A stretch of DNA of 64,000 nt from Candidatus Falkowbacteria bacterium. Its GTDB lineage: Bacteria > Patescibacteriota > Patescibacteriia > UBA11705 > JABHMO01. This document shows positions 870 to 38,513 of the stretch, one piece after another. The stretch lies in NCBI GenBank assembly GCA_018674305.1, contig JABHAL010000015.1:30683-94682 (forward strand), read 5' to 3'. Numbering within the stretch: position 1 is the first letter of the stretch; every line of letters begins with the position of its first letter. Position numbers and translations under genes: made by a program. Under the pieces are notes generated by a model. That model saw only the letters and a list, made by a program, of their open reading frames with translations. It was not told the origin of the DNA and did no database searches.

Positions 870-1658
870 ATGCTCGTATTTTCAGCAATCGTGCCACATC
901 CTCCGATATTGATTCCATCAATCGGCAAGGAAAATATAAAAAAATTAAAAAAAACCATTCACGCTTTGGACATTTTAGAGCAGGACTTAAATGATGCTAA
1001 ACCTGATACTTTGATTGTAATCACTCCGCATGGTGATATTAATTTTGATGCTTTTACTATTAATACTAACCAAAAGTATACAGCTACGTTTGAAAAGTTT
1101 GGTGAATTTTCTACCAAACAAGAGTTCAAGTCAGATCTTGGTTTCATAAATCAACTCAAAGGTGCAAATGAAGTTGAATTGCCAATCCAATTAATTTCAG
1201 AGTCAACTTTGGATCATGGCGCCTCAGTTCCCTTATACTATTTGACTCGCAAAAATCCAGATTATCGAATTGTTCCAATGACTTACAGCTTTTTGAATTT
1301 TCAAAAGCATATAGAATTTGGTGAAGTTTTGAAGGAAGCTATTTATAGTTCAGATAAAAAATATGCCATAATTGCATCTGGTGATTTATCACATCGTCTA
1401 AGTATGCAGGCGCCAGCAGGTTTTTCGCCAAAAGCCAAAGAGTTTGATAAAAAATTAATTCAACTTTTGAAAAAGAAAAGTGTTGAAGGTATCCTAAACA
1501 TGGAACCAGCATTCATCGAAGAAGCTGGTGAGTGTGGATTGCGATCGTTTTTAATTATGCTTGGCGCTATCAAGAATATGAGTTATGATTTTGAAGTATT
1601 GAGTTATGAAGCGCCGTTTGGAGTTGGGTATTTAGTGGGTTCAGTTAAATTCAAGTAA
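870..1658 (+). CDS. LigB-type class III extradiol dioxygenase-like / Memo-like protein (AmmeMemoRadiSam protein B-like)
   Basis: VPHPP...ITPHG N-terminus, DHGxxVPL, ASGDLSHR and AGECG motifs typical of the LigB/Memo fold. Confidence 0.5.
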   Translation: MLVFSAIVPHPPILIPSIGKENIKKLKKTIHALDILEQDLNDAKPDTLIVITPHGDINFDAFTINTNQKYTATFEKFGEFSTKQEFKSDLGFINQLKGANEVELPIQLISESTLDHGASVPLYYLTRKNPDYRIVPMTYSFLNFQKHIEFGEVLKEAIYSSDKKYAIIASGDLSHRLSMQAPAGFSPKAKEFDKKLIQLLKKKSVEGILNMEPAFIEEAGECGLRSFLIMLGAIKNMSYDFEVLSYEAPFGVGYLVGSVKFK

Positions 1659-1811: not shown

Positions 1812-2033
1812 TCAGTCATTCGTCGTCTCCTCTTGTTTTTTTTCGTATTCTTCGATTGAGACAAATACAGGAAAAAGACCTTTGGATTTTGGGAGTTCAG
1901 CGTCGTTGCGATCATACGCAATGAAGCCCGTTCTTTTTGACTGATACTCTAGATTGTCGTACATTGAGAATGGCATGTTCCCGATGAATTTTTCACCGGT
2001 TTTGGCTTCTGGATGATCTTCACTTCGAAACAT
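1812..2033 (-). CDS. Hypothetical small protein (73 aa)
   Basis: ORF only; sits downstream of the terminator; no motif recognised. Confidence 0.25.
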   Translation of the reverse strand: MFRSEDHPEAKTGEKFIGNMPFSMYDNLEYQSKRTGFIAYDRNDAELPKSKGLFPVFVSIEEYEKKQEETTND

Positions 2034-2139: not shown

Positions 2140-2168
2140 TTTGTTTTATCTGTGGGAAGTGCTATAAT
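2140..2168 (+). promoter_or_regulatory. Sigma70-type promoter with TATAAT at 2163-2168, 6 nt before the priA ATG (leaderless or near-leaderless mRNA)
   Basis: gctTATAATgaaaatATG; weak -35 tttgtt with 17-nt spacer. Confidence 0.45.
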
Positions 2169-2174
2169 GAAAAT

Positions 2175-4043
2175 ATGCAAAAAGTAGCTCAAATAATACC
2201 CCATAAAAAATTGCCTCGTAGCATGCATTATTTTGATTATTCAATTCCTAAAAATCTAGAATTAGTGCCTGGTCAAATTGTTAATGTACCATTCAAAAAG
2301 AGTGAGATGTTGGGAATTGTGCATAGTTTGAAAGATAAATCAGAATTCAAATATATCAAAGAGGTTATCAGTTTGGAACCCAAAATAAAATCTTTAGTAC
2401 CCTATCAGTTGGAATTTATTAATTGGTTTAGCCAAAATTATTATTATTCAAAAGGGTCGACTTTGGATTTGTTATTGCCACACATGCCTAAACGTAAAGT
2501 AAAGGTAGTTGATAAAAAATTAGAAATCCCAGTTTCTGAGTTGAAGGAAAATCAAGAGGTTAAGGATTTAGCTGAAAAAATTAGCAAATCAAAGACTCGT
2601 AATTTTTTATTATTTCCTTTCGATATTAATTTAAAGAGGTGTTTATATTTAAATTTGATACAGGATATTGTAGCGCAAGAAAGGCAAATTTTGATATTGT
2701 TTCCACAGGTTTACAAAGTTCATGAATTCTATGCTCACTTGAGTCCTGAATTACGTAAACAAACCGCAGTATTAACTTCTGATTTGTATACTTCCAAGGC
2801 GCGTTATTTCACAGCTTGGCAGAAAATAAAATCTGGTGAAAGTAAAATTATTTTGGGTACCCGTTCTGCGGTGTTTGCGCCATTGTCTAAATTGGGAACC
2901 ATTATTTTGGATGACGCTCATAGTGATGATTACAAGCAATGGGACCAAAATCCCCGTTATGAAACTCAAAAGGTTGTTCAAAAAATTCAGGAAATAACCA
3001 ATTGTAAATTGATTTTATCATCATTAACTCCCAGGGTTGAAGACAGTTACTTGGCGAAAGAACAAGATTATAAGTACATCTCCTTGGGAAAAAAAACAGC
3101 ATCAGAAATCAAAATTATTGATCTAAAGAGAGAGCGAGAAAAATCATTTACTTATTTGTCAGATGATTTATTGAATTCAATTAAAATAGCAAACAAAAGT
3201 TTGTTAATTGTAAATAAACTTGGTGAGTATAGTTATTTCTTTTGCGAAGACTGTGGATTTGAGGCTACTTGTCCTGAGTGTAAATTACCTTTAACGGTTG
3301 AAAATAATCAATTGTCTTGTTACCGCTGTGGTATAAAACAGTCTGTCTATTTGAACTGTCCTAAATGTCGCAGTGTGAAGTTGAAAAAGCTTGGAATCGG
3401 GTTACAGCAAATAAAAGAGCAATTGCGAAATGTTTTGGGTGCTGAAGTTTGTGATTTAACCCAGGATGAGAATAGTTCGACCGCTAAGATATTGATTTCT
3501 ACTGGTCAGCAAATTAAGACAAAGCATTTTCAAAATTTAGAGTTACTGGCTTTTGTATATATAGATAGTTTGGCCTACTTGGCTGACTTTAATTCCAATT
3601 TTAAATTGTATAGTTTTCAACAAGAATTAATTCATCGTGCCGTTGGCGCAAAAGTTATTGTGCAAACTTGTTTTCCTGAGAATCTAGCGTTTCAAAGTCT
3701 AAATCAAGGTTATGATTATTTCTATAAACAAGAGATTGATAGTAGAAAAACATTTGGCTATCCCCCATTTGCAACACTGATAAAGTTATTTTTTGATCAT
3801 CATGATAAAACAGTTTGCGAAAGAGAAGGTTCGAATTTTCACAAGCAAATTAATTCATTGATTACCCAAAACAAAGGCAAGATTAGTGAGCCATATTTAC
3901 ATTATCGACAAAAAGTTCGAAAACGGTTTCGTTGTCAAATGGCGATATTTTTACCTGAGCTTGATCTTTCAGTTGAAAATGAGATTTTAGCTCAGGTAAC
4001 AGAGCATTGGACTATTGACAAAAGCCCGATTGACCTGTTATAG
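2175..4043 (+). CDS. priA: Primosomal protein N' (PriA) homologue with degenerate ATPase motifs
   Basis: PriA-like N-terminal 3'-DNA-binding domain (PHKKLPRSMHYFDYSIP...VNVPF), Cys4+Cys4 zinc-binding insert (CEDCGF..CPEC...CYRCG...CPKC), TRSAVFAP motif; Walker A GxxGSGKT is replaced by PFDINLKR and DEEH by DDAH. Confidence 0.75.
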   Translation: MQKVAQIIPHKKLPRSMHYFDYSIPKNLELVPGQIVNVPFKKSEMLGIVHSLKDKSEFKYIKEVISLEPKIKSLVPYQLEFINWFSQNYYYSKGSTLDLLLPHMPKRKVKVVDKKLEIPVSELKENQEVKDLAEKISKSKTRNFLLFPFDINLKRCLYLNLIQDIVAQERQILILFPQVYKVHEFYAHLSPELRKQTAVLTSDLYTSKARYFTAWQKIKSGESKIILGTRSAVFAPLSKLGTIILDDAHSDDYKQWDQNPRYETQKVVQKIQEITNCKLILSSLTPRVEDSYLAKEQDYKYISLGKKTASEIKIIDLKREREKSFTYLSDDLLNSIKIANKSLLIVNKLGEYSYFFCEDCGFEATCPECKLPLTVENNQLSCYRCGIKQSVYLNCPKCRSVKLKKLGIGLQQIKEQLRNVLGAEVCDLTQDENSSTAKILISTGQQIKTKHFQNLELLAFVYIDSLAYLADFNSNFKLYSFQQELIHRAVGAKVIVQTCFPENLAFQSLNQGYDYFYKQEIDSRKTFGYPPFATLIKLFFDHHDKTVCEREGSNFHKQINSLITQNKGKISEPYLHYRQKVRKRFRCQMAIFLPELDLSVENEILAQVTEHWTIDKSPIDLL

Positions 4044-4182
4044 TTATGTTTAAATTACCCTAATTGTTCTAATTAATCTAAAATGAACAAACCCCAATTC
4101 AAACGTTTGTTTTGGAGTTGTAGCTTTGAAATTGTTTATAATAATTTCCTTTTGTGTTTATTTTATGGTTTAATATTAATAT

Positions 4183-4641
4183 ATGATTAAAGAGATCGTC
4201 ACTCATCCAGATGACAGGCTAAGAGAAAAGTCTAAAGACGTAAGTTTGGGTGAAATAACAACTGAAAAGTTTAGTCAATTAGTAAAAGATATGACTGAAA
4301 CTATGAAAAAAAAAGACGGAATTGGCTTGGCTGCTCCGCAAATTGGAGTTGGAAAAAGAGTGGCTGTAATTAATTCAAAAAATGGAGTCATTATTTTTGT
4401 TAACCCAAAAGTTGTACGGAAGTCATTTCTTAAAGATATAGATGAAGAAGGTTGCTTAAGTGTTCCAGGTAAATATGGCAAAGTTAAGCGTTGCCGAAAA
4501 ATAACTGTTCGCTTTGACGATGGCCAGGGTCAAAAAAATACAATTGTAGCCAGAGGGTTATTTGCTCGAGTCATACAACACGAGCTTGATCATTTAGATG
4601 GAATTCTTTTTATTGATAAGTTAGTCAAATCCAAAAAGTAA
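4183..4641 (+). CDS. def: Peptide deformylase
   Basis: GIGLAAPQIG, EGCLSVPG and HELDHLDG motifs. Confidence 0.9.
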   Translation: MIKEIVTHPDDRLREKSKDVSLGEITTEKFSQLVKDMTETMKKKDGIGLAAPQIGVGKRVAVINSKNGVIIFVNPKVVRKSFLKDIDEEGCLSVPGKYGKVKRCRKITVRFDDGQGQKNTIVARGLFARVIQHELDHLDGILFIDKLVKSKK

Positions 4642-4643
4642 AC

Positions 4644-5591
4644 ATGATAAATGAAAAACAAATCAAGATAGTGTTTCTGGGATCAGCAACTTTTTCTGTT
4701 CCAATTTTAATGGAATTAATAAAGCGATATACGGTTGTGTCTGTGGTAACAGAAATTGATAAACCAGGAGGTCGGGGCTTGGAAATTGTTTCGCCTCCAA
4801 CAAAAGCTTTATCTCAACAACAAGGTATTCCAGTTTATCAACCGTTAAGTCTACAGAAAAACCCAAAACTTTTGGAAAAATTAGCCGGTTTAAATCCAGA
4901 TCTCTGTGTGGTGGCAGCCTACGGTAAAATATTGCCATCCGAATATTTAAACTTTACTCGGCATGGGTGTTTGAATGTGCATCCTTCACTGCTACCAAAG
5001 TACCGAGGCGCTTCTCCGATTCAGAGCGCTTTTTTAAATTCTGACATAGAAACTGGTTGCAGTATTATTTTAATGGATGAAGGCATGGATACTGGCGATA
5101 TTTTGGTTCAAAAAAGCGTACAAATTGATCCTGATTGGGGCTATAGAAAGCTGGAGCAAAAACTGTCTTTGTTGGGGGCTCAATTGTTGGCGAAAAGGAT
5201 CCCAGATTATATTAAGGGTAATCTTAGTTTTGATATTCAGGATGATCATAAAGCAAGCTTTTGTTACAAGGTATCAAAAGAAGACGGCTTGATTAATTGG
5301 GCTCATTCTGCGAAAAAAATCATTGGAAAGGTTAAAGCATTTGAAGTTTGGCCTGGAAGTTATACATATTTCGGAAATAAAAAATTGGACATAATTAATG
5401 CCCAAATAGCAGAGATCCCCAATGAAAAGGTTGACTTGGGTAAAGTTATGAAACAAAATGGAAAAATTTTCGTGAGAACAGGTTCAGGTTTTATTGAGTT
5501 GTTTGAAGTTAGGCCTGAGGGTAAAAATAAAATGTCAGTTAAGGATTTTATAAATGGACATCAGGATTTTGTGGGTTCTGTCTTGGGGTGA
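4644..5591 (+). CDS. fmt: Methionyl-tRNA formyltransferase
   Basis: N-terminal formyltransferase domain (IVFLGS..., HPSLLPKYRGASPIQ) plus C-terminal Fmt domain; immediately follows def. Confidence 0.9.
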   Translation: MINEKQIKIVFLGSATFSVPILMELIKRYTVVSVVTEIDKPGGRGLEIVSPPTKALSQQQGIPVYQPLSLQKNPKLLEKLAGLNPDLCVVAAYGKILPSEYLNFTRHGCLNVHPSLLPKYRGASPIQSAFLNSDIETGCSIILMDEGMDTGDILVQKSVQIDPDWGYRKLEQKLSLLGAQLLAKRIPDYIKGNLSFDIQDDHKASFCYKVSKEDGLINWAHSAKKIIGKVKAFEVWPGSYTYFGNKKLDIINAQIAEIPNEKVDLGKVMKQNGKIFVRTGSGFIELFEVRPEGKNKMSVKDFINGHQDFVGSVLG

Positions 5592-12335: not shown

Positions 12336-12893
12336 TTATACTGTTCCACCTTGGCTATTTTCACTGAAGACTATTGCTTCATATTTATAAAATTTTGTAG
12401 ATTTATCCGTCCAGCAAGTTTCACCTAGTCCAGCTTTTTGACAAAGCGTACCAAGGAACTTTTCTTTGCTAGATAAGCTTTCCCATACTTGTGGTAAATA
12501 AGTTGCTTTGTGTGGTCCTTGTTGGATAATCACGCCGTGTTTGCCTGCTTCAATATCTTCGAGTTGACATTCTTTGGCTGGAGTTAAAATAGAGATTTCG
12601 ATTTTAATTTCATCAAGTTCTTCAACAGAAACTTCTAGAAATCGGACATCCCTAGTGGCTGAGGCAACTGCGTTGTCGGCAATTGCGTCCCAAATACTGG
12701 AAACCGGCTCAATGTATCCAATGCAACCGCGTAATTCTTTTCCTTTGTGAAGCGAAACAAAAACACCCGCTGATTCTAGATAATTTGAATCAGGGCAATC
12801 CTGTTCAACTTTCTTGCCATCTTTTACAATATGAACTAATACTTGCCTGGCATAGCCAAGAAGTTCACTTTTTTGTTCATCTGTGAATTGCAT
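12336..12893 (-). CDS. AMMECR1-domain protein (AmmeMemoRadiSam system protein A-like)
   Basis: Hallmark LRGCIGYIEP motif. The ORF-track start at 12914 is a TTG; the first ATG is at 12893, just after a TATACT/TATAAT box (leaderless-type start). Confidence 0.8.
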   Translation of the reverse strand: MQFTDEQKSELLGYARQVLVHIVKDGKKVEQDCPDSNYLESAGVFVSLHKGKELRGCIGYIEPVSSIWDAIADNAVASATRDVRFLEVSVEELDEIKIEISILTPAKECQLEDIEAGKHGVIIQQGPHKATYLPQVWESLSSKEKFLGTLCQKAGLGETCWTDKSTKFYKYEAIVFSENSQGGTV

Positions 12894-13091
12894 ATTATAA
12901 TTTAAGTATAGCAATTTAAGTTAAAGAGTTCAAATGAAAAATAACCACTTGTGATTGTCGAGATTCCGGATCGTAGTCCGGAATGACGCTTGGGGGTGTT
13001 TTGAGGCATTGGGTAAAATCTGGAAGGACACTTTTGGTAACAGTTTTTTATGTTTGAATCTTCTTCTTTATTGTTATTCCATTCCTGGCTT

Positions 13092-14320: not shown

Positions 14321-17230
14321 TTAAGCTTCGAGTTCCTCCATGATCTCGAGAGCTTCGTTTTCAAATTTGTCAATTTTTTCAGATAGCTGAGTAATTTTCT
14401 TTTCAGCGTTTGTCCAGGCTCGTTGATGTTCGAGTGTTATCCCGTTGCCATCATATGCCTTTTGGTAGTCGACCATAGCTTGATCACGAATTGCAATTTG
14501 CGCTGTGATTTTGGCTCTGGTCATTTCCGTTTGTTCAATCAACCAGTCAGCACGAGCTTGCGTTTTTCCAGTGGGAATAACGGGCTCGTTGGTTTCAACC
14601 ATTGGCTCAGCCATGTCTTTCTTGAATTCTTTCCGTCGCCGAGCATTACCCTTATCAGACTTTTTCCTGGGTGTCGCCGCCGTGTTGCTTTCAAAATCGT
14701 TATTGAAACGACTGCCAGAACTTGGCATGTGGCGGATCGGATAAATCGTCGGTAATGGACGAATGGGTCTGGGCATAGGTTGAGTTCGCGTTATAGAACG
14801 TCTGAAGATCCCAGATAACGCATTTCGAAATGAGATGTTACCAGGTTCACTAACGCCATTAAAGTTAACATGACCAGTTTCAAAACCATTCGGTTGAACA
14901 GGCGCATGCCCTTCTGGAATTCGTGACTTCGGAATTTTCAGGCTGATACCCTTTTCTTTTGCTAACTCAACGGTGTATACACCAGTTCCTAGAATCAGTC
15001 GAGAGTATTCATCTCGTGCAGTACTTATGCTGGAGTAGCGTGAAGTACCAACAATTGCTCGGATAACGATTTGATTATGTCTTTCAATATCATCATCCAA
15101 GTCTCCCAACTGATTGTACGCCAGTCTGTCGATGAATGAACTTTCAAGGCTGGTCAGTAGTTCAGGTGTAAGATGTTTATCTGGAATTCTGTCGTCATTG
15201 TCTTCTACAACGAAAAGATTTTCCATTCCTAAACCTGGATAGTACCAGCTGATATTCACACCGCCGTAGGGACTACAGCTTGCATTGTGAATATATGGTT
15301 CACTAAAAACAGTTTCCAGATCCTGCATAGTCAGGAACACACCTTCCATATTGTGGAACGTTCCGTTTCGTTGGGTTCGGATAGTATGAACCGAACCATA
15401 CATAGGTAGGCGTTGTCCGCTTTTTCTACATACTGAAGTTTTGGACAGTTCCACTGTGTCAATACTCCAGCCGCTTCTTTGCTCACGCAGAATTCCACGT
15501 TGATTGGCTAATTCCATTGCATCAACCTTGATCAGAAGCTGTTTAAAGTTAGCTTCTAATTCGGGGGTGATTTCCGGAAGGTCCTCTTGGAATCGGAATA
15601 GCGGAATTTTAAGTGCCCGGAGAATGCTGCTGACTGCAATCAGCGTGCTATCCACAGACTTGTAGTAAATCCCATGTTCAATTGCCCAGCTTCGGTATTC
15701 GCGCTTCAGTCCAAAGACGGAAGTTCCGTCCTGATGATTCTTGCGAATATAGCCAAAGCTTTCCAGTGCATGAATTACGATGTTGTATTTAGTCAGTAAA
15801 TCATTGCATGGAACAATGAATTCGTCGATGTCGTACTTACCATCACGGTTTAGCATGGAGTACAAGCTTGAGGTGGCGGCGCAAACCATAACTAGCGGTA
15901 ACAATTCATTACTCGACTGAGCAAGATGTTCACCCCAGATTCTGGCCACCGGGAACTTTTCAACTTTCTGACCGTAGTCAGTCAGTTTATTGTCCCTGGA
16001 AATTAGACCTCGCTTGACTAGCATAAGCCAAACCTGGCGATATCGATCATGATCAATTCCACCAATAGGATCCAACTCATCCAAGTCAATTTCCATTCTT
16101 GCACAAGTCAGAGCAACCTGTTCGAGGTCACCAGCCAGTACAAATTCCGGAACCACAGGCTTTAACGTGTGGTAGTCAACCTCATATTCAGTAAGAATGT
16201 CGATTTGACCACCAACAACGCGACCGTGCACACGTCCACCCATTTGTAGGATGAAGTTGGAATCAAGCGCTCGCTTTTCCAGCGCTTTAACTCCTGTGTA
16301 CTTGTCCACCACTTCAGTGAACATTTCATTATGAATCACGACCCAGTCCAGTCCCTGAACATTCAGGGAAGAAGAACCAGCAATGGTCATAAATATAATG
16401 AACGGTTTCTTGACTTCACCACGCATGTACTTGTACAGCTTGTCTGCTGACTCGCCACCGTGGTAGAAATCAGTGTGTAGAGTTGAATTCCCATCATATT
16501 TTCTGGCCATCTTCTCGCACATGGCGCGGGTTGGTAGAAACACTACCATGCCACGCTGTCCGGAAATGACCTTGTCCAGATTGCCCATGTCATCGAGAAA
16601 GTACTCAACCCAGGGTTTTCTGGTGTTAATGCCAAGACCGTACCGTTGATAGGTAAAAAGATGACAGTTAACAGTTGCTTCTTTACCAGGTTCTACATGT
16701 TCACATTCAATTATCTGGCGGGTGCCAAAGTAATCAAGGTAAACAGTTGAATCGATGGTCGCACTCATCCAGCTTACTTGAATTTTCTTGTACTTGGCTA
16801 GAGCCATAACAAGTTCCAGATGTTCACTGGTTTGATGCACTTCATCGATGATCACTACATCACCGCCGTCATTCTTGATGATTCCGGCTTTGAGATAGTT
16901 CATGGCTACTCCAGTAGTACAGATGACCACTGGGCACTGCCAAGTGTAGGATGTTGCTTCATCTTCACTGGTGACAATATCGTATTGAAATTTGTCACCA
17001 AAATGTTGTTGGCAAATGTCGCGCAGAAAAACAGTTTTTCCTACGCCGGTGCCAGCTACAATTCCAAACGATTCCTCGAGTTTTCCCAACTCGAGGAGCT
17101 TTGTGGCAAAGGTTTTTCTGAGATAGGTCTCGATTGGACCGTTCTCAAAGATTGCCTTCACAGTTCTAGTGTGGGCTCTCATCGGAGCTACGATCCAAAT
17201 TCGATTGACCTTGCTCATCTTTTCCTCCAA
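14321..17230 (-). CDS. DExH-box (DEAH/RHA, HrpA/HrpB-like) superfamily 2 helicase, 969 aa with a long C-terminal extension; compositionally GC-rich
   Basis: Motif I AGTGVGKT, motif II IIDEVH, motif III SAT, motif VI QMGGRVHGR; HA2-like segment FPVARIWGEHL...VCAATSS. About 45% GC by eye against about 33% in the flanks. Confidence 0.7.
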   Translation of the reverse strand: MEEKMSKVNRIWIVAPMRAHTRTVKAIFENGPIETYLRKTFATKLLELGKLEESFGIVAGTGVGKTVFLRDICQQHFGDKFQYDIVTSEDEATSYTWQCPVVICTTGVAMNYLKAGIIKNDGGDVVIIDEVHQTSEHLELVMALAKYKKIQVSWMSATIDSTVYLDYFGTRQIIECEHVEPGKEATVNCHLFTYQRYGLGINTRKPWVEYFLDDMGNLDKVISGQRGMVVFLPTRAMCEKMARKYDGNSTLHTDFYHGGESADKLYKYMRGEVKKPFIIFMTIAGSSSLNVQGLDWVVIHNEMFTEVVDKYTGVKALEKRALDSNFILQMGGRVHGRVVGGQIDILTEYEVDYHTLKPVVPEFVLAGDLEQVALTCARMEIDLDELDPIGGIDHDRYRQVWLMLVKRGLISRDNKLTDYGQKVEKFPVARIWGEHLAQSSNELLPLVMVCAATSSLYSMLNRDGKYDIDEFIVPCNDLLTKYNIVIHALESFGYIRKNHQDGTSVFGLKREYRSWAIEHGIYYKSVDSTLIAVSSILRALKIPLFRFQEDLPEITPELEANFKQLLIKVDAMELANQRGILREQRSGWSIDTVELSKTSVCRKSGQRLPMYGSVHTIRTQRNGTFHNMEGVFLTMQDLETVFSEPYIHNASCSPYGGVNISWYYPGLGMENLFVVEDNDDRIPDKHLTPELLTSLESSFIDRLAYNQLGDLDDDIERHNQIVIRAIVGTSRYSSISTARDEYSRLILGTGVYTVELAKEKGISLKIPKSRIPEGHAPVQPNGFETGHVNFNGVSEPGNISFRNALSGIFRRSITRTQPMPRPIRPLPTIYPIRHMPSSGSRFNNDFESNTAATPRKKSDKGNARRRKEFKKDMAEPMVETNEPVIPTGKTQARADWLIEQTEMTRAKITAQIAIRDQAMVDYQKAYDGNGITLEHQRAWTNAEKKITQLSEKIDKFENEALEIMEELEA

Positions 17231-17295
17231 AATTAGAATAAATTTTCAAAAAACAATATCATAGAATTATAGCATTAATATTCAGTTTTGTCAAT

Positions 17296-17330
17296 ATAAA
17301 AAAGAGGCTTTTTTAGAGCCTCTTTTTTTA
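17296..17330. terminator. Rho-independent terminator (aagaggct/agcctctt) usable in both directions
   Basis: Perfect 8-bp stem flanked by an A-run and a T-run, lying between convergent and divergent units. Confidence 0.7.
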
Positions 17331-17349
17331 TCTAAATTTACTTTTGAAT

Positions 17350-18660
17350 TTAGGTCATGGCAAGTATAGCAATAAGAATCACAAAAAGGATTGCGCTAAT
17401 AATAACTATATCTAATAATACTGATACAAAAGCTCTCCATCCACCTTTGCTGGCAAAGATTGCTGGAACTCCAAAAATCAAGAATAAATAAATCAGAAAC
17501 AAGACAATTACACCAATTAGAATCATTGACTCAAAACCGTCGGGCAAAACTTTATGCCAACGAATATCATCTAGCCAGTTTAATGCATAAGTTAAAGCAA
17601 ATAAACACAGAGAGGCAACAAAAGCCCAGGTTAAATATTGTCCATTAAAAAGATTTATTTGTGAATCATGATCTTTGGGTTTGTGTGTTGGTTCTACATG
17701 TGGCTTATCCATTTTTGGTTTTCTGTCACTGAAGTGTCGGTTCAAGAAATACAGTCCGACAATTAACAATATTAAAATTATAATTGTAGTTAAAATGCGA
17801 CCAAGGTTCAGTCTTAGCTTAGACGTTGCATATGTACCAGGAACATTAAAAGTTTCGTCTGGTGCTAGATCCGTTCCTTTCTTGTTAATTGTACCAGAGT
17901 AACCGATTCTTCTTGAAGCTTCATCAAGACTTTTGTTTGAAAAGCTGGTTGCTCCCAATCCAGCTGATTCGCCAACTGTCATCATATCAGTATCATAATT
18001 TACAGTTGTCTTTTGTCCACGCATTTCTAAATCTGCATCAGTGCTAATTGCCACGTTTAATTCCTTGATTCTGACGGGAGCTTTTAGATTATTAAAATTG
18101 AACTTAAATAAACCTCCCCACTTCTCTTCAACATAACTCTTGGAATAATATGATAGAACAACAGCTCCTTGTTTGTCTGGTGCAACCGTTTGTTCAAGGT
18201 TAATCAAAATGGAATCACCATTAGTTTGTGATTTTAGTTTAAAATATTTGGCACTGCCTTTTGAATTACCGTAATAATAGCGATTGTTTTGGTAATAGTT
18301 TGGGTCTGAATATTTTTTACAATCGTTAGCTTTAGTTTCTTTATTGTAAACTGATTCATCGCAAACTTGGGGTAGAACTTGTTGATAAGTCATTAGTTCA
18401 TATAGCTGATCGTCTGAGGAAAATTTCAACTCTGATAAATCATTGTCAGAAAAGTTTGTAAAAGCAATTCTGGCAGTGATAACTGCTTCACCATTACCAC
18501 GCATAGTTACAGAATAGTTGTGCTTTTGACCAAAAATGATACCACCAACAGAACTGTCAGGTGATGGTGGAACTGGCATAATTTCAATTTCTTGGGCTAA
18601 AGTCAAAGCAGGACACAAAAGTAGGAGCAAAATAAAACTTGAAACAAAAAGTTTTTTCAT
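17350..18660 (-). CDS. Exported protein with N-terminal signal peptide and C-terminal TM anchors (hypothetical)
   Basis: MKKLFVSSFILLLLLCPALTLAQE signal peptide; 3 C-terminal hydrophobic helices. Confidence 0.4.
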   Translation of the reverse strand: MKKLFVSSFILLLLLCPALTLAQEIEIMPVPPSPDSSVGGIIFGQKHNYSVTMRGNGEAVITARIAFTNFSDNDLSELKFSSDDQLYELMTYQQVLPQVCDESVYNKETKANDCKKYSDPNYYQNNRYYYGNSKGSAKYFKLKSQTNGDSILINLEQTVAPDKQGAVVLSYYSKSYVEEKWGGLFKFNFNNLKAPVRIKELNVAISTDADLEMRGQKTTVNYDTDMMTVGESAGLGATSFSNKSLDEASRRIGYSGTINKKGTDLAPDETFNVPGTYATSKLRLNLGRILTTIIILILLIVGLYFLNRHFSDRKPKMDKPHVEPTHKPKDHDSQINLFNGQYLTWAFVASLCLFALTYALNWLDDIRWHKVLPDGFESMILIGVIVLFLIYLFLIFGVPAIFASKGGWRAFVSVLLDIVIISAILFVILIAILAMT

Positions 18661-20149: not shown

Positions 20150-20941
20150 CTATTTCTTCTTCTTTGTTACAGTTTTCTTTTTTGGAGCTGTTTTTTTAGT
20201 AGCTGCTTTCTTTGCTGCCGGTTTCTTTTTTGGAGCAGCCTTCTTGGTAGCTACTTTCTTTGCAGTAGGTTTCTTTTTTGGAGTAGCCTTCTTTTTTGTT
20301 ACTGCCTTTTTCTTTACTACAGCTTTCTTTGGAGCTGGTTTTGAAGGTGTTGCCTTTACTTCTGAAGACGGAGGAGAATAAGGTTTTGGTTTTTGTTCTT
20401 GGTAAGAAGATCGTCCACCTTGGTCACCACGTGAAGGTCTTGAGTTTTGTCCTTGATAAGAAGATCGTCCGCCTCGTCCACCACGTGAAGAGCTTGAATT
20501 TCGCCCTTGATATGAAGATCGGCCACCTTGTCCGTATGCGGGTCTTGAGTTTTGTCCATGATAAGATGATCGTCCGCCGTGACTTTGTGGGCGTGAGTAA
20601 GATTGGCTTTTGATCCCAAGTGCCTTTAGAATTTGGTCTAATTTAGCATTCAGAGTTTCAAAATCAGGTCTTGATCCACCTGCTCCACCTGAACCGCCAC
20701 TTGAGTCGCTTCTTTTTATACCACCAAAACATTTATTACAATAAATTGGCTTATCACCGCTTGGGTTGAAAGGCACTTCACAGCGCTGTCCACAAGCAGC
20801 ACAAACCGCCTTGAATAAAGGACGGTCAGAGTTTTTTCTATTTTCTTGGAAACATTTATCACAGAAAACCGGTTTGTCTCCAGAGGGTGTAAACGGAAGT
20901 TCACAACTATTTCCGCATTTATCACATTTTGCATTAAACAT
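20150..20941 (-). CDS. Nucleic-acid-binding protein: two CxxC...CxxC zinc ribbons, an RGG/SY-QG-N-SRP low-complexity repeat region and a Lys/Ala-rich histone-H1-like tail
   Basis: CDKCGNSCELPFTPSGDKPVFCDKCF and CAACGQRCEVPFNPSGDKPIYCNKCF; GGRSSYQGQNSRP repeats; C-terminal AKKAATKK repeats. Confidence 0.6.
   Translation of the reverse strand: MFNAKCDKCGNSCELPFTPSGDKPVFCDKCFQENRKNSDRPLFKAVCAACGQRCEVPFNPSGDKPIYCNKCFGGIKRSDSSGGSGGAGGSRPDFETLNAKLDQILKALGIKSQSYSRPQSHGGRSSYHGQNSRPAYGQGGRSSYQGRNSSSSRGGRGGRSSYQGQNSRPSRGDQGGRSSYQEQKPKPYSPPSSEVKATPSKPAPKKAVVKKKAVTKKKATPKKKPTAKKVATKKAAPKKKPAAKKAATKKTAPKKKTVTKKKK
20390..20620. repeat. Imperfect tandem DNA repeats (~39-nt unit, about 5 copies) encoding the GGRSSYQGxNSRP region
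   Basis: Recurrent ...gatcgtccgcc...gtccttgataagaagatcgtcc... units visible in the sequence. Confidence 0.55.
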
Positions 20942-21809: not shown

Positions 21810-23375
21810 CTAGTTGGTGTCATTAAGTTGTTTTTTTGGTGCAACTTTGACCTTTGGTTTTATTTTAATTAGACCAGGCCCTTGCTGTACGGGTTGAACT
21901 TTAATATCAACTTTAGGAAAAACACTACTGCTGCCGTCATTGGTGAACTCTTTGTTTGGTGAATCACTAATTGTGCTACCACCTTGATCATAGGGTTCAG
22001 TTTTCGGTGCATTAATTTCTTTGGGATTGAACTTAGCTTCAACAGTAGGCTTTACTTCCTTTTTTTGGGGATCCCACTTAGTTTCGTCATAAGCTGGTAG
22101 CATTTGTTTTTCTTTTCTGATTTCGTGAACCTTTCGTTTCTGATTATCTTTCATAAGATCCTTTTTCTCGTTGATTTTTCTCAATAATTCATCTGCAGCA
22201 ACATCACCGCTTTCAGCCTTGGTAGTTAATTCTAATTTCTTGGCTTTAAGTATTTTAGCTTTTTCGATTCTGCGTCGGGCATCATTTTTTGCTGTGCTTA
22301 TGGTGGATTTTAGTTTACTGGATAATTCTTTGGCTTTTCCGGCTTGATCAAGAATCTTATGACGTCTTTCTAATAACTTTTCTTTCAACTCATCATTTTT
22401 AGCTTGAACATGGGCCATGTAATTCTTTACTTTGGCAGCACGTTCGCGAACATCAATTTTTTCCATTTTTTCTCCAAGTTTTCTGTGTCTTTCGGCAATA
22501 GCTATATCAAAAGCCTTTTTGTTATCTCCAAATTTATCTTTTAGTTTATCAATAAATTCTAAATCGTTTAAAGGTTTAAGATTACTACCTTGTTTTGCTT
22601 CAAATATTTTGCGTAAACGTTCAGCTACTTTTTCTGGATCGTTATTGTCAACCTTTTCCATAACTTCTTTCATGTTTTCCAAATGTCTTTCGCGGGTGGC
22701 TTTAATTTTTTCATAAGCTTTGTTTGTCACTTGGTTTTCCAGTTTTTCAAGAATTTTATGGTGCAAGTACTGTTGGTGGGTAAATTTATCTTGAAGGTTT
22801 TTCAATTTTTCCGGATCTATATCGAAACTTGTGATTTTGTTTTTAATGTAAGTTACATATTCTTGAGCTTTCTCAATGTCTTTAACTGCTTTAGCTTTTA
22901 ATTTTTCATTATCACTATTTTCAATAACGTATTTGGCTCGAGCAACTTTTTGATTAGCGTAGGTAAATCGCTTTTCTGCAGCTTTAGCGGCATCAAAAGT
23001 TGTAGCTAAAGAAATAGCTTGTTTGGTATTTTGCCACCAACGACGCCAGCGGGAAGTTGTTTGAACATTTGCGTTAACCTCTAAGTCCTCAACTGTTACT
23101 TCATTATCAATTATCGCTTCTTCAGAAACTATTTCTTCTATTACTAAATCATCATATTCTGCTGGTAAAACAATTTCTTCAGTTGGTAAAGCACCGCCTT
23201 CAGTTGATCCGCTTATATTTTCAGCCTCCATAACTTCAATTGTTGTGTCATGATTGACATCCTCTGCTTCGCCTTGAATATCGCCGATCTGTATAAATGC
23301 GCTTTGTGCTAAAGTTGGAGAAGCTATACAAAGCATTACCAAAATGATTAAAATTCGACTAAGATTAGATAACAT
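21810..23375 (-). CDS. Secreted K/E-rich coiled-coil protein (hypothetical)
   Basis: Signal peptide (ILVMLCIASPTLAQS) followed by a long charged helical region. Confidence 0.45.
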   Translation of the reverse strand: MLSNLSRILIILVMLCIASPTLAQSAFIQIGDIQGEAEDVNHDTTIEVMEAENISGSTEGGALPTEEIVLPAEYDDLVIEEIVSEEAIIDNEVTVEDLEVNANVQTTSRWRRWWQNTKQAISLATTFDAAKAAEKRFTYANQKVARAKYVIENSDNEKLKAKAVKDIEKAQEYVTYIKNKITSFDIDPEKLKNLQDKFTHQQYLHHKILEKLENQVTNKAYEKIKATRERHLENMKEVMEKVDNNDPEKVAERLRKIFEAKQGSNLKPLNDLEFIDKLKDKFGDNKKAFDIAIAERHRKLGEKMEKIDVRERAAKVKNYMAHVQAKNDELKEKLLERRHKILDQAGKAKELSSKLKSTISTAKNDARRRIEKAKILKAKKLELTTKAESGDVAADELLRKINEKKDLMKDNQKRKVHEIRKEKQMLPAYDETKWDPQKKEVKPTVEAKFNPKEINAPKTEPYDQGGSTISDSPNKEFTNDGSSSVFPKVDIKVQPVQQGPGLIKIKPKVKVAPKKQLNDTN

Positions 23376-23432
23376 AGATTCTTATTGTTATTAATTATCT
23401 TCGTAATTCATTATACCATGAATTACGAAAAT

Positions 23433-23461
23433 CAAAAGAGAGCAGTTACTGCTCTCTTTTG
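23433..23461. terminator. Rho-independent terminator (agagagcag-tta-ctgctctct + T-run)
   Basis: Perfect 9-bp stem; T-runs on both sides. Confidence 0.7.
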
Positions 23462-23480
23462 TATAGAATTTCTTTAAGTT

Positions 23481-24620
23481 CTATCTACTTGCTCCGGTAT
23501 AAGCGATTGCTCTCATAATTGACCAGTGATGTGAAGTGCTTGGTACATAACCATATACACCTTTGAAGCTGCCAATGGCGGCTCTTTCACTATCAAGGTT
23601 TCTAACAACATTTCTGATGTTGTAGCCTATATAGTACAAGGCCCATTCATCGTAAATGTTATTAAAGTCTGGCAAACGTTTGTAAACTTTTGTGAAGTCT
23701 ACAAGAGCAGTTTGTTCAGCGCTGATCTGCCTTTGAGTTGGCTTATGGCTGGTCAATATTAGATCAATATCATACCAGTCTGTTGTTGATGCCGGTACTC
23801 GACCATATATGTCGAAGTAGTCACCAACTACACCTTTTCGGTCACGGACAGACATACCAGTAGAGTTTGTTGTACCGTAAGCAATAAAGTTAACACTTTG
23901 CCATTCCCCATCAGTTGCTGGCACATCTCCAGTTAATGCAATAAAGTGTTCCAATCCCTCAGCCTCATTATCTGCATTGATAACAGCAGCCTGAGTTGGT
24001 ACTACCTCTGAAACAGTTTCGGTTGTTAATTCAACTCCAGTATCTGTAGTCACAGTTTCAGTCGTTGTAGTAGTTGTAGTAGTACCTCCATTACCTCCAC
24101 CATTGCCACCACCACCTGCAGTGATGGTAAATGTGCTGTTTGTTGGAGTTGGGGTGTAACCGTCACCACTATGAGTTCTAACCGCTACCACGCCGGCTGT
24201 TGCTGCGCCTGATCCTGTTGTATAGCCAAATGTCCAGGTAGTACCTGATCCACTCATTGCAGTGTAAGCTTGAGTCGCTACTGCATCTTCCGTGATGTAA
24301 ATGTCAGGTGTTCCTGAAACCGCAGAGCCGAATGTTGCGGTAATTGTAACTGCGGTATTTGGAGTGATTGTACAACTGCTAGAACATGAAGCGTATGTGA
24401 TTGCCAATGTCGGAGTTTCCTCTGTCCAATAACCATAACCATATCCATATTCAGAAGCTACACCATAACCATAACCATAGCCAGAGTCTTGTGTCGCAAA
24501 GGTTGTATAAACTGTACTCAAGTCAAAAACTGTTACTAAAGCTACTATCATAACTAAAGCAACAATTACCTTTGCTATTGTTTTCTCACTACTAAAAAAT
24601 TTTCCTATTTTTTTTTCCAT
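23481..24620 (-). CDS. Membrane-anchored surface protein with GYGYGY repeats and poly-Thr/Gly linker (hypothetical)
   Basis: N-terminal TM helix; SGYGYGYGVASEYGYGYGY; GGGGNGGGNGGTTTTTTTTETVTTD. Confidence 0.45.
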   Translation of the reverse strand: MEKKIGKFFSSEKTIAKVIVALVMIVALVTVFDLSTVYTTFATQDSGYGYGYGVASEYGYGYGYWTEETPTLAITYASCSSSCTITPNTAVTITATFGSAVSGTPDIYITEDAVATQAYTAMSGSGTTWTFGYTTGSGAATAGVVAVRTHSGDGYTPTPTNSTFTITAGGGGNGGGNGGTTTTTTTTETVTTDTGVELTTETVSEVVPTQAAVINADNEAEGLEHFIALTGDVPATDGEWQSVNFIAYGTTNSTGMSVRDRKGVVGDYFDIYGRVPASTTDWYDIDLILTSHKPTQRQISAEQTALVDFTKVYKRLPDFNNIYDEWALYYIGYNIRNVVRNLDSERAAIGSFKGVYGYVPSTSHHWSIMRAIAYTGASR

Positions 24621-24836
24621 TTTGGTAAATTTTAAGATTAATCAATTTAAACCATTCGACCTTTAAGCAGTTTGCTTAATGATTATGGTAATATGGATTC
24701 ATCTATATGCTTAAGGTTGGATCCTAATAGAAGATTATATATTACCAAATGTATTATACCATTTTTCTTATTATTCTAAAAGTTTTAATAGTATGTATGT
24801 GGATAAACTATATGTTGTAAATTGAAGTTATTGTTT

Positions 24837-25535: not shown

Positions 25536-25539
25536 AGCC

Positions 25540-28744: not shown

Positions 28745-28745
28745 A

Positions 28746-32592: not shown

Positions 32593-32594
32593 TC

Positions 32595-33932: not shown

Positions 33933-33942
33933 ACATTACTAA

Positions 33943-35875: not shown

Positions 35876-35917
35876 AATTATTGATTTAATATTTTTCTGT
35901 TTCCTCTATTAACCCAA

Positions 35918-38396: not shown

Positions 38397-38513
38397 TAAT
38401 TTTTCTTTTCCGTCTATAGAGCCACCCTGGGGGTTTTGGGGTGAAATTGAGCCCATGAAAGAACCCCAAAGCATACTATTTGTTACGGCGAATTTGAAAC
38501 CCCAACACTTTTT

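What the first reader, a model, noticed from the sequence alone, without database searches (positions are those of the whole stretch)
2175..4043. PriA homologue with both ATP-binding (Walker A) and DExH catalytic residues substituted
The protein keeps the PriA N-terminal 3'-DNA-binding domain, the Cys-rich zinc insert and TRSAVFAP. At the position of LLAGVTGSGKTEVYL it has LLFPFDINLKRCLYL (no GKT). At the position of VIDEEHDSSYKQ it has ILDDAHSDDYKQ (catalytic Glu replaced by Ala). Motif VI arginines are also partly replaced (HRAVGAK). This predicts a helicase-dead PriA that could still recognise forks or recruit other factors.
Basis: partly seen in the sequence, partly recalled or inferred. 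Interest (0 to 1): 0.5.

Follow-up and report, generated by a model that had tools for sequence, protein, structure and literature searches.

The report
ATPase-dead PriA (pseudohelicase) in CPR bacteria
This gene is the bacterium's own replication-restart protein PriA, which has lost every residue needed to burn ATP but is still strongly conserved; this state was known from Deinococcus and is here found to be widespread in a group of tiny uncultured (CPR/Patescibacteria) bacteria.

Summary
ORF 2175-4043 (+, 622 aa) is a full-length PriA orthologue. It passes the TIGR00595 cutoff, its AlphaFold model matches E. coli PriA at TM 0.83, and it sits in the priA-def-fmt slot. Its P-loop is erased (PFDINLKR for GxxGxGKT), motif II reads DDAH, motif VI is gone, and part of lobe 2 is deleted.

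It is not a pseudogene. dN/dS is 0.07-0.11, the same as the neighbouring def and fmt. All eight zinc cysteines, the 3'-end pocket, the "GTR" motif and the aromatic-rich loop are conserved.

It is not a one-off. At least 136 clusters at 50% identity share the dead state (MAGs labelled Falkowbacteria, Kuenenbacteria, Buchananbacteria, Parcubacteria). Sister CPR lineages (Torokbacteria, Moranbacteria) keep canonical motifs in the same syntenic slot. Loss of constraint is confined to the two RecA-like lobes.

The best reading is an ATP-independent fork sensor and helicase-loading adaptor, like the experimentally characterised Deinococcus radiodurans PriA pseudohelicase, but of independent origin. 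No biochemistry was done, and a second priA elsewhere in the genome could not be excluded. Verdict: new member of a known kind, moderate interest.

The parts
2175..4043 (+). priA orthologue, 622 aa, predicted ATPase-dead (pseudohelicase)
   Evidence: ORF. TIGR00595 254 bits, above cutoff. PDB PriA 1e-52. AF2 pLDDT 91. Foldseek 8fak_H TM 0.83.
2175..2480 (+). 3' DNA-binding domain (aa 1-102), including F20-D21-Y22, equivalent to E. coli F16-D17-Y18 (nascent leading-strand 3'-end pocket)
   Evidence: Pfam PF17764 3.8e-16. D21, Y22, G33, G47, W84, Y89 and S92 are invariant in the 35-sequence clade. Y22 is 99% and D21 77% in 136 degenerate representatives. The role of D17 is from PMC5175346.
2481..2552 (+). 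Short linker (aa 103-126) where E. coli PriA has its winged-helix domain; the WH domain is absent
   Evidence: Lower pLDDT (71-88) and no secondary structure. Close match to the WH-deletion PriA 6dcr. The canonical orthologue P0195 also lacks WH.
2616..2639 (+). Remnant of Walker A / motif I: P148-F-D-I-N-L-K154-R155 in place of GxxGxGKT
   Evidence: Alignments. No P-loop anywhere. Across 136 degenerate representatives the position is K 50% / R 15% and the Thr position is random, versus K100/T100 in canonical PriAs.
2856..2882 (+). GTRSAVFAP (aa 228-236), a conserved lobe-1 motif that is retained
   Evidence: G228 and R230 invariant. G96/T94/R89% in degenerate representatives.
2910..2921 (+). 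Degenerate motif II: D246-D247-A248-H249 in place of D-E-x-H
   Evidence: The catalytic-Glu position is D28/Q19/E13/N11% in degenerate representatives versus E100% in canonical ones.
2931..2960 (+). Aromatic-rich loop (motif IIa), Y253-K-Q-W-D-Q-N-P-R-Y262. It is retained and is the best-conserved segment of the clade
   Evidence: K254 92%, Q255 77%, R261 91%, Y262 85% (+F 14%). The E. coli ARL is K328...R334, Y335, and it wedges at the fork junction (PMC5175346; PMC10175261).
3231..3386 (+). Cysteine-rich region (aa 353-404) with four CxxC pairs (two Zn sites)
   Evidence: Cys 357/360/366/369/382/385/395/398, all invariant in both clade alignments. CRR conservation ratio, degenerate/canonical, is 0.89.
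3075..3758 (+). Former helicase lobe 2 (aa 301-528, interrupted by the CRR). Motif V is degenerate (ISTGQQ for IGTQM), with a deletion of about 13 aa before it. The motif VI remnant is ELIHRAVGAK (aa 484-493, nt 3624-3653), with a 4-aa deletion
   Evidence: The motif V Gln is 20% versus 100%, and motif VI is mostly gaps. Lobe identity ratio is 0.59-0.64.
3759..4040 (+). C-terminal domain (aa 529-622)
   Evidence: Pfam PriA_C 21.9 bits, below the 26.9 cutoff, but covered by the structural match. Conservation ratio 0.98.
870..1658 (+). LigB/Memo-like gene, a conserved upstream neighbour (synteny marker)
   Evidence: Pfam LigB 3.9e-44. Present upstream of priA in 14 of the 15 related GTDB loci; the 15th, L015, begins inside priA. 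Also upstream of the canonical orthologue P0195.
4183..4641 (+). def (peptide deformylase), a conserved downstream neighbour
   Evidence: Pfam Pep_deformylase. Follows priA in 14 of the 15 loci; L016 ends inside priA.
4644..5591 (+). fmt (methionyl-tRNA formyltransferase), a conserved downstream neighbour
   Evidence: Pfam Formyl_trans_N/C. Synteny as for def.

Best explanation
The gene is the organism's orthologous priA, and it has become a pseudohelicase. The protein keeps the PriA architecture without a winged helix: 3' DNA-binding domain, two RecA-like lobes, a Zn-binding cysteine-rich region and a C-terminal domain. It has lost the residues that bind and hydrolyse ATP.

The most likely mechanism has three steps.
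1. [quoted passage not shown]
2. The former helicase lobes, CRR and CTD hold the lagging-strand template. The retained aromatic-rich loop sits at the fork junction. This copies the ATP-independent fork-recognition step seen in the E. coli PriA-fork structure.
3. The bound protein acts as a landing platform that brings the replicative helicase DnaB back to the fork, either directly or through an unknown partner.

No strand unwinding by PriA itself is expected.

Shown here: domain and residue retention, motif loss, purifying selection, positional orthology, and clade-wide distribution. Inferred: absence of ATPase activity, fork binding, and DnaB recruitment.
For: Identity and fold:
- TIGR00595 scores above its cutoff.
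- PDB PriA 1e-52, with K154 aligned to E. coli K230.
- AF2 pLDDT 91.1, pTM 0.89.
- The top Foldseek hits are all PriA; fork-bound 8fak_H gives TM 0.83/0.80.

ATPase loss:
- There is no P-loop, DExH or GRxGR anywhere in the protein.
- In 136 degenerate versus 28 canonical representatives: Walker A Thr random vs T100; catalytic Glu D28/Q19/E13/N11 vs E100; motif III Thr A35/T19 vs T100; motif V Gln 20% vs 100%; motif VI lost.
- There are deletions before motif V and at motif VI.

Retained function:
- dN/dS is 0.073, 0.079 and 0.111 for three pairs within the clade, against def 0.086 and fmt 0.091. Every domain has omega 0.02-0.18.
- The eight Cys are invariant, and D21/Y22 are invariant in the close clade.
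- ARL K92/Q77/R91/Y85 and GTR 89-96%.
- Mean pairwise identity, degenerate/canonical: 3'BD 1.08, CRR 0.89, CTD 0.98, but lobes 0.59-0.64. The relaxation is confined to the motor.

Orthology:
- LigB/Memo - priA - def - fmt order holds in all 15 GTDB loci, as far as each contig reaches.
- Canonical P0195 lies in the same slot, WecG-LigT-radical SAM-...-LigB-AMMECR1-priA (compare L001).
- An NJ tree built without the motif columns has a canonical root and one block of about 125 degenerate sequences.

Precedent:
- D. radiodurans PriA lacks ATPase and helicase activity but binds ssDNA, forks and DnaB (PMC4504706).
- E. coli priA300 (K230R) is near wild type in vivo (PMC5778457).
- Fork recognition and CRR pivoting were visualised in a PriA/PriB/fork complex whose description mentions no added nucleotide (PMC10175261).
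Against: - No biochemistry was done; ATPase loss is inferred from sequence only.
- A Lys is still present at the Walker A position (K/R in 65% of degenerate representatives), and an Asp at the first motif II position (75%). The two co-occur (odds ratio 8.7). Some residual nucleotide or phosphate contact cannot be excluded, though a structural salt bridge or shared ancestry explains this equally well.
- In this particular protein the catalytic Glu is replaced conservatively by Asp.
- Only 64 kb of the genome, plus 8 kb further upstream, could be inspected. A second, intact priA elsewhere is not excluded.
- The partner protein is unknown: no dnaB, dciA, ssb or other primosome gene is in the window.
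- The tree is a simple NJ tree and is prone to long-branch attraction.
- dS for two of the three pairs is about 1.1-1.2, which is close to saturation.
Confidence: 0.7

Rival explanations
1. The protein is still an ATPase or translocase that uses a non-canonical nucleotide site built around the surviving Lys154 and Asp246/Asp247.
For: K154 aligns with E. coli K230. K/R at this position is kept in 65% of degenerate representatives and D246 in 75%, and the two co-occur (OR 8.7, p 4e-7). The catalytic Glu to Asp change is conservative. The literature mentions a proposed second, weaker nucleotide site in E. coli PriA whose location is unknown (PMC5778457).
Against: All three P-loop glycines and the Thr are replaced by bulky or charged residues. 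The motif III Thr, motif V Gln and both motif VI Arg positions are unconstrained or deleted across the clade. The catalytic position itself drifts freely (D/Q/E/N). E. coli K230R alone abolishes activity, and the far milder Deinococcus changes already give zero ATPase. The co-occurrence statistic is not corrected for phylogeny.
Confidence: 0.06
2. The gene is a decaying relic with no remaining function.
For: Branches are about 50% longer than for canonical relatives. PriA identity falls faster than that of neighbouring genes at larger distances.
Against: The 600-680-aa ORFs are intact in well over 100 diverged clusters. dN/dS is 0.07-0.11, equal to def and fmt. Many residues are invariant, including eight Cys. 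The fold is predicted with high confidence. The identical ORF occurs in at least 23 contigs.
Confidence: 0.02
3. The protein has been re-purposed for a role other than replication restart, for example as a structure-specific DNA-binding factor in recombination, repair or regulation. Alternatively it is only a fork-targeting subunit, and another motor (RecG, PcrA/UvrD/Rep, or a second canonical PriA encoded elsewhere) does the unwinding.
For: A pseudoenzyme can acquire new partners. The rest of the genome could not be searched. The window contains no primosome genes. In E. coli, helicase activity is needed for some restart routes such as PriA-PriC (PMC5778457), so some other activity may have to substitute.
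Against: It occupies the same syntenic slot as canonical priA of sister CPR lineages. The elements kept are exactly those that PriA uses for fork recognition: the 3'-end pocket, ARL, CRR and CTD. The Deinococcus precedent retains DnaB binding.
Confidence: 0.17

Closest known systems
Deinococcus radiodurans / Deinococcus-Thermus PriA pseudohelicase (Lopper, Boone & Morrow 2015, PLoS One 10:e0133419; PMC4504706)
   Same: [quoted passage not shown] The same functional logic is proposed here: fork sensor and loader without a motor.
   Different: The origin is independent. The loss maps inside the CPR, with canonical CPR orthologues in the same synteny. The degeneration here goes further: the whole glycine-rich loop is erased while the Lys is kept (Deinococcus has Lys to Arg within a recognisable motif), motif VI is deleted, lobe 2 is shortened, and there is no winged-helix domain. 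Nothing has been measured for this protein.
Escherichia coli / Klebsiella pneumoniae PriA helicase (PDB 8FAK, 6DGD, 4NL4)
   Same: Same overall fold (TM 0.83 to 8fak_H). Shared features are the 3'BD with F-D-Y pocket, the ARL K/Q/R/Y residues, a CRR with eight Cys, and the CTD. The engineered K230R/A/D mutants are helicase-dead yet support restart.
   Different: The query lacks the winged-helix domain and all ATPase motifs. PriB and DnaT, the E. coli partners, are said not to be well conserved across bacteria, so the downstream partners must differ. Overall identity is about 25%.
Canonical short PriA of other CPR lineages (e.g. P0195 'ACD_63', P0167 Candidatus Torokbacteria, P0331/P0359 Moranbacteria)
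   Same: Similar length (650-680 aa), no WH domain, the same ARL signature (YKQWDQxP.Y) and the same genomic slot.
   Different: These keep GxxGxGKT, DEEH/Q, GSATP, GTQM and GRxxR. The query has lost them and is about 50 aa shorter, mainly in lobe 2.
Actinobacterial PriA (NCBIfam PRK14873 group)
   Same: From my memory of UniProt annotation only: mycobacterial PriA carries a caution that it has no detectable helicase domains. If correct, that would be another lineage with a non-helicase PriA.
   Different: This was not verified here, and two literature searches found nothing. The query scores far lower on the PRK14873 models (95 bits or less) than on the PRK05580/TIGR00595 models (254-301 bits), so it is not of that type.

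Membership tests
PriA (primosomal protein N', replication restart protein) | N-terminal 3' DNA-binding domain | tested here: met
   Pfam PF17764 59.1 bits against a cutoff of 22.7. The F-D-Y pocket aligns with E. coli F16-D17-Y18.
PriA (primosomal protein N', replication restart protein) | Whole-protein equivalog model score | tested here: met
   TIGR00595 priA 254 bits against a cutoff of 230.35. The PRK05580 sub-models score far below their cutoffs.
PriA (primosomal protein N', replication restart protein) | Bilobed SF2 core with a Cys-rich Zn-binding insert in lobe 2, plus a C-terminal domain (fold) | tested here: met
   AF2 pLDDT 91. Foldseek ranks 1-9 are all PriA, TM up to 0.83. Eight Cys in four CxxC pairs. 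Pfam PriA_C scores below its cutoff (21.9 vs 26.9).
PriA (primosomal protein N', replication restart protein) | SF2 ATPase motifs I (GxxGxGKT), II (DExH) and VI (QxxGRxGR) | tested here: not met
   None is present anywhere in the protein. Aligned positions read PFDINLKR, DDAH and ELIHRAVGAK. Pfam DEAD scores below its cutoff, and there is no Helicase_C hit.
PriA (primosomal protein N', replication restart protein) | Winged-helix domain between the 3'BD and the helicase core (E. coli-type architecture) | tested here: not met
   Only a 24-aa linker is present. The domain is also absent from the canonical CPR orthologue P0195, so it is not universal to the family.
PriA (primosomal protein N', replication restart protein) | Orthologous genomic position (priA-def-fmt) | tested here: met
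   def and fmt lie immediately downstream. The same order holds in all 15 related loci, as far as each contig reaches. Canonical P0195 has the same upstream neighbourhood. That priA-def-fmt is a common bacterial arrangement is from my own knowledge.
PriA pseudohelicase (as defined for Deinococcus-Thermus) | Natural loss of consensus in Walker A and Walker B in an otherwise intact, conserved priA orthologue | tested here: met
   loss; constraint.
PriA pseudohelicase (as defined for Deinococcus-Thermus) | No ATP hydrolysis and no duplex unwinding in vitro | not testable with these tools
   Requires purified protein. Shown for D. radiodurans PriA.
PriA pseudohelicase (as defined for Deinococcus-Thermus) | Retained ssDNA and fork binding, and physical interaction with DnaB | not testable with these tools
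   Only indirect support: conservation of the 3'BD pocket, ARL, GTR, CRR and CTD.
PriA pseudohelicase (as defined for Deinococcus-Thermus) | Common descent with the Deinococcus-Thermus degenerate PriA | tested here: inconclusive
   No Deinococcus sequence was available for a joint tree. The nearest relatives are canonical CPR PriAs in the same synteny, and the tree root is canonical. This argues for an independent loss.

The most novel reading that the evidence does not exclude
Loss of the PriA motor is not a curiosity of one MAG. It is the fixed, ancient state of a whole major branch of the CPR/Patescibacteria: Falkowbacteria, Kuenenbacteria, Buchananbacteria and many 'Parcubacteria' MAGs, which from memory roughly correspond to GTDB class ABY1. 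There may also be several further independent losses. That would mean replication restart in these reduced-genome bacteria runs with a PriA that is purely a structure-specific fork sensor and loader. It would also provide more than 100 deeply diverged natural pseudohelicases whose conservation pattern defines the minimal, ATP-independent core function of PriA.
Probability: 0.5. Interest if true: 0.55.

Novelty: new member of a known kind. Interest (0 to 1): 0.45.

Why it matters
[quoted passage not shown] This finding adds a second, apparently independent and much larger set of natural motor-less PriAs, in a radiation that makes up a sizeable part of bacterial diversity.

It supports the view that fork recognition and helicase loading, not unwinding, is the indispensable PriA function. 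It also offers a ready-made evolutionary 'mutagenesis' data set. The 3'-end pocket, the aromatic-rich loop, the GTR motif, the zinc fingers and the CTD stay fixed while every ATP-site residue drifts. These organisms lack the E. coli-type winged-helix domain, so the finding also raises the question of what partners load DnaB in them.

Practically, annotation pipelines label these proteins 'primosomal protein N' (superfamily II helicase)', which overstates what they can do.

Tried and rejected
- **Frameshift or fragment:** rejected. The ORF aligns end to end with canonical short PriAs, the flanks are full of stops in all frames, and the identical ORF occurs on many contigs.
- **Hidden P-loop elsewhere:** none found in any frame.
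- **Second priA in the window:** tblastn with four canonical PriAs found only this gene.
- **dN/dS from near-identical alleles (L001, L022, L023):** uninformative. There were zero synonymous differences and a single K219I change. I replaced this with more distant pairs.
- **Cluster-member look-ups for taxonomy:** few names were returned.
- **GTDB scan:** it used a single clade-specific peptide pattern, so it found only degenerate loci. It cannot speak to the co-occurrence of a canonical copy in the same genome.
- **Literature searches** for PriA with CPR/Patescibacteria, and for actinobacterial PriA motifs, found nothing relevant.
- **PADLOC scan** of the GC-rich helicase-like ORF and three other Pfam-poor ORFs found nothing significant.
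- **Nucleotide pocket in the AF2 model:** I could not inspect it, because model coordinates are not exposed to the scripting tool.
- **Joint tree with Deinococcus PriA:** not possible, because I had no Deinococcus PriA sequence.
Full report
**1. What is there**

The window holds an intact ORF at 2175..4043 (+) of 622 aa. Its in-frame upstream extension is only 16 codons before a stop. The flanks are dense with stops in all frames. tblastn with the protein itself and four canonical PriAs finds no other PriA-like sequence in the 64 kb. The exact protein is deposited as 'primosomal protein N' [Candidatus Falkowbacteria bacterium]', and its longest contig is 448,736 bp. It is called on at least 23 independent contigs, always followed by def and fmt. 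Sequencing or assembly artefacts are therefore excluded. G+C is about 32-35% around the gene.

**2. It is PriA**

- Pfam finds the PriA 3' DNA-binding domain well above its cutoff. PriA_C and DEAD score only below their cutoffs, and there is no Helicase_C hit.
- NCBIfam's priA equivalog TIGR00595 scores 254 bits against a cutoff of 230.35, but the alignment begins at profile position 13, just after the Walker A.
- phmmer against PDB sequences hits only PriA (1e-52 to 2e-50). Query residue 154 aligns with residue 230 of E. coli PriA, the Walker A lysine.
- An AlphaFold2 model built on a 35-sequence clade alignment is confident throughout (mean pLDDT 91.1, pTM 0.89, no segment below 50).
- The top nine Foldseek PDB hits are all PriA. 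The best is fork-bound E. coli PriA 8fak_H (TM 0.83/0.80, rmsd 5.0 A). The apo structures 4nl4 and 6dgd and the winged-helix-deletion construct 6dcr give TM of about 0.71.
- The segment between the 3'BD and lobe 1 is a 24-residue linker, so the winged-helix domain of E. coli PriA is absent.

**3. The motifs**

| Element | Canonical PriA | This protein |
|---|---|---|
| Walker A | L-L-x-G-V-T-G-S-G-K-T-E-V-Y-L | L145-L-F-P-F-D-I-N-L-K154-R-C-L-Y-L |
| Motif II | D-E-E-H | D246-D-A-H |
| Motif V | IGTQM | ISTGQ |
| Motif VI | Q-V-x-G-R-x-G-R-x-x-x-x-G | E484-L-I-H-R-A-V-G-A-K, with four residues deleted |

- In the Walker A all three glycines and the Thr are replaced, and only the Lys remains.
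- About 13 residues before motif V are missing.
- Regular-expression scans find no [AG]xxxxGK[ST], GK[ST], DExH/D or GRxGR anywhere in the protein or in the other two frames.
In DExH the catalytic base is the second residue. The catalytic Glu corresponds to Asp247, and Ala248 occupies the variable position.
- Retained features are G228-T-R-S-A-V-F-A-P236, the aromatic-rich loop Y253-K-Q-W-D-Q-N-P-R-Y262, and eight cysteines in four CxxC pairs (357/360, 366/369, 382/385, 395/398).
- By the alignment, K254, Q255, R261 and Y262 match E. coli ARL residues K328, Q329, R334 and Y335, and D21 matches D17. E. coli studies tie the ARL to DNA-coupled activity and to a wedge position at the fork junction. 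They tie D17 to recognition of the nascent leading-strand 3' end (PMC5175346; PMC10175261).

**4. It is a clade property**

- In the first database search, about 40 relatives of 600-680 aa share the degenerate state and their own conserved versions of the motif regions (LLFP...K, ILILFPQ, DDAHSxDYKQWDQNPRY, SSLxPR). All more distant hits are canonical.
- A profile of the clade was searched against 1.84 billion cluster representatives. The top 150 all scored above 415 bits. Of 137 new 50%-identity representatives, 108 lack motifs I, II and VI together, about 10 keep only DEEH, and about 20 are fully canonical.
- A further search seeded with the more divergent degenerate group gave 53 degenerate, 52 canonical and 1 mixed among 106 new clusters.
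- Source names for degenerate members are Candidatus Falkowbacteria, Kuenenbacteria, Buchananbacteria, Parcubacteria and 'Patescibacteria group'.
- Source names for canonical close relatives are Candidatus Torokbacteria, Moranbacteria/Moraniibacteriota, 'Parcubacteria group' and ACD aquifer bins.
- From memory, the degenerate names belong largely to GTDB class ABY1. I did not test this.

**5. Orthology and direction of change**

- All 15 species-representative loci recovered from GTDB genomes carry LigB/Memo-like - priA - def - fmt, as far as each contig reaches. All are degenerate. That is expected, because the scan pattern was the clade-specific DYKQWDQNP.
- The canonical relative P0195 (GVTGSGKT, DEEH, GRTGR) lies in WecG - LigT - radical SAM - ... 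- LigB - AMMECR1 - priA.
- The window organism has WecG/NUDIX - LigT - radical SAM - ClpB - ... - LigB/Memo - priA upstream (L001), with AMMECR1 nearby at 12336..12914.
- Canonical P0040 also has WecG and LigT upstream. This is positional orthology.
- P0195 also shares the ARL signature (YKQWDQHPLY) and also lacks a WH domain.
- A neighbour-joining tree built with the motif columns removed and rooted on Firmicutes-type PriAs infers a canonical root. It shows a single block of about 125 degenerate sequences plus a few degenerate sequences among canonical ones (parsimony minimum of six changes). Mean root-to-tip length is 1.28 for degenerate versus 0.86 for canonical sequences.
- The tree is crude, so the number of independent losses is uncertain. 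The direction, canonical to degenerate within the CPR, is well supported.

**6. It is still under selection, and the relaxation is confined to the motor**

| Comparison | dN/dS | dS |
|---|---|---|
| PriA, P0017-P0024 | 0.073 | 0.75 |
| PriA, P0020-P0021 | 0.079 | 1.23 |
| PriA, P0017-P0020 | 0.111 | 1.10 |
| def, same pair of contigs as P0020-P0021 | 0.086 | 1.19 |
| fmt, same pair of contigs | 0.091 | 1.11 |

- These are Nei-Gojobori estimates. Each domain, including both former RecA lobes, has omega between 0.02 and 0.18.
- ATP-site positions across 136 degenerate versus 28 canonical sequences:

| Position | Degenerate | Canonical |
|---|---|---|
| Walker A Lys | K50/R15 | K100 |
| Walker A Thr | random | T100 |
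| Catalytic Glu | D28/Q19/E13/N11 | E100 |
| Motif III Thr | A35/T19/S18 | T100 |
| Motif V Gln | 20% | 100% |
| Motif VI | mostly gaps | present |

- DNA-side and structural positions in the degenerate set: motif Ia Pro 96%; G-T-R 96/94/89%; ARL K 92%, Q 77%, R 91%, Y 85% (+F 14%); motif III Pro 94%; 3'BD Tyr22 99% and Asp21 77%. The eight Cys are invariant in both clade alignments.
- Mean pairwise identity in the degenerate set relative to the canonical set is 1.08 for the 3'BD, 0.89 for the CRR and 0.98 for the CTD. It is 0.60 for lobe 1 and 0.59-0.64 for lobe 2.
- This is the signature of a pseudoenzyme. The scaffold and the ligand (DNA) surfaces are kept and the catalytic site is released.
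- K/R at position 154 and Asp at position 246 co-occur (odds ratio 8.7, Fisher p 4e-7, not corrected for phylogeny). A retained Lys-Asp structural salt bridge, stepwise decay, or a residual ligand contact would each explain this.

**7. Mechanism proposed**

- From established PriA biology, fork recognition involves the 3'BD pocket holding the leading-strand 3' end. HD1, with the ARL, sits at the junction. CRR, HD2 and CTD form a pore around lagging-strand ssDNA, and the CRR pivots to expose a partner-docking surface (PMC10175261).
- ATPase-dead E. coli PriA (K230R/A/D) still assembles primosomes and behaves nearly like wild type in vivo, although some routes need the helicase (PMC5778457).
- D. 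radiodurans PriA has no ATPase or unwinding activity, binds ssDNA (Kd about 215 nM) and forks (Kd about 109 nM), and interacts with DnaB (PMC4504706).
- The elements preserved in the CPR clade are the ones used in those ATP-independent steps.
- I therefore propose that this protein is a motor-less, structure-specific fork sensor that recruits the replicative helicase, directly or through an unidentified partner.
- The loss of ATPase activity, the DNA binding and the partner recruitment are all inferences.
- As an aside, the AF2 model resembles the fork-bound conformation (TM 0.83, rmsd 5.0 A) more than the apo conformations (TM about 0.71, rmsd above 8 A). AF2 conformational preferences are not reliable evidence, so I give this no weight.

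**8. Rivals**

- A non-canonical ATPase is unlikely (about 6%). Every ATP-site position drifts, and the P-loop glycines are replaced by Pro, Ile and Leu.
- A functionless relic is excluded by the selection data (about 2%).
- Re-purposing, or dependence on another motor or a second canonical priA elsewhere, cannot be excluded with 64 kb of sequence (about 17%). Positional orthology argues that this is the lineage's priA.

**9. Comparison with what is known, and novelty**

- The concept of a natural PriA pseudohelicase is published for Deinococcus-Thermus (2015) and is cited in the field's main review as the sole exception.
- I found no paper in the searchable library connecting PriA degeneration with CPR/Patescibacteria. 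Public annotations call these proteins 'primosomal protein N' (superfamily II helicase)'.
- The CPR case appears to be an independent loss. It is more extreme, with the P-loop erased, motif VI deleted and lobe 2 shortened, and it covers a very large and diverse clade.
- I classify it as a new member of a known kind, with moderate interest (0.45).

**10. Limits**

- No biochemistry was done.
- There was no access to the rest of the genome.
- The tree is a simple distance tree.
- dS is near saturation for two of the three pairs.
- The taxon names are those given by depositors. Several TPA bins titled 'uncultured Gammaproteobacteria' clearly carry CPR-type loci.
- The recollection about actinobacterial PriA is unverified.

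Noticed in passing
window 14321..18660 (-): A 969-aa ORF with only weak DEAD/AAA_14 Pfam hits and a marginal Cas3 PADLOC hit (E about 1e-3), followed by a 436-aa ORF with no family hit. Both lie in a patch of raised G+C (0.405-0.425, against about 0.32 around it). This may be an acquired island with an uncharacterised helicase-like protein.
   Followed up: partly
window 870..1658 (+), 12336..12914 (-); L001 3388..4440; L021 1421..5017: The three components of the 'AmmeMemoRadiSam' trio (LigB/Memo-like, AMMECR1, radical SAM) are scattered around priA here. They are contiguous just upstream of canonical priA in L021. The Memo-like gene is the most conserved neighbour of priA across the related loci (42-80% identity).
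   Followed up: partly
window about 27100..62000 (-): A very long same-strand cluster of surface-glycan genes: many GT2/GT4 glycosyltransferases, UDP-glucose dehydrogenase, epimerases, a Wzx-like flippase and a PMT_2 protein. It is interleaved with six radical SAM enzymes (three B12-binding at 27161-28774, 37021-38469 and 43653-45113; three SPASM at 35918-37093, 38549-39667 and 40650-41669) and methyltransferases. This is unusual chemistry for a small-genome CPR organism. GC skew is strongly negative throughout.
   Followed up: no
window 2160..2177 (+): An extended -10-like element, TGCTATAAT (TATAAT at 2163-2168), ends only 6 nt before the priA ATG (2175). There is no Shine-Dalgarno sequence at the usual distance. 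priA may be translated from a leaderless or near-leaderless mRNA. The consensus scan did not list this site, because no -35 element was found.
   Followed up: no
window 4015..4044 (+): The best promoter-like match of the region (TTGACA-18-TATAGT with TG, 11/12) lies inside the last codons of priA, about 140 nt upstream of def. This suggests def-fmt may have their own promoter.
   Followed up: no
window 21810..27258 (-) and 28746..31496 (-): A run of large ORFs (521, 379, 232, 572 and 916 aa) with no Pfam family at E<=1e-3 or 1e-4, and no PADLOC hit for the 916-aa ORF (the only one of these scanned).
   Followed up: partly
window 1812..2033 (-): A 73-aa ORF antisense to the priA upstream region. 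It is called as a gene in two independent assemblies and has no Pfam hit.
   Followed up: no
L002, L008, L009, L012, L013, L014 (GTDB genome contigs): TPA metagenome bins titled 'uncultured Gammaproteobacteria bacterium' carry CPR-type Memo-priA-def-fmt loci with degenerate PriA. The record titles look like placeholder or wrong taxonomy.
   Followed up: partly
window 20150..20941 (-): A 263-aa protein with two copies of the recently defined treble-clef zinc finger zf_Tbcl_2 (PF23477, 9e-29). Its function is unknown.
   Followed up: no
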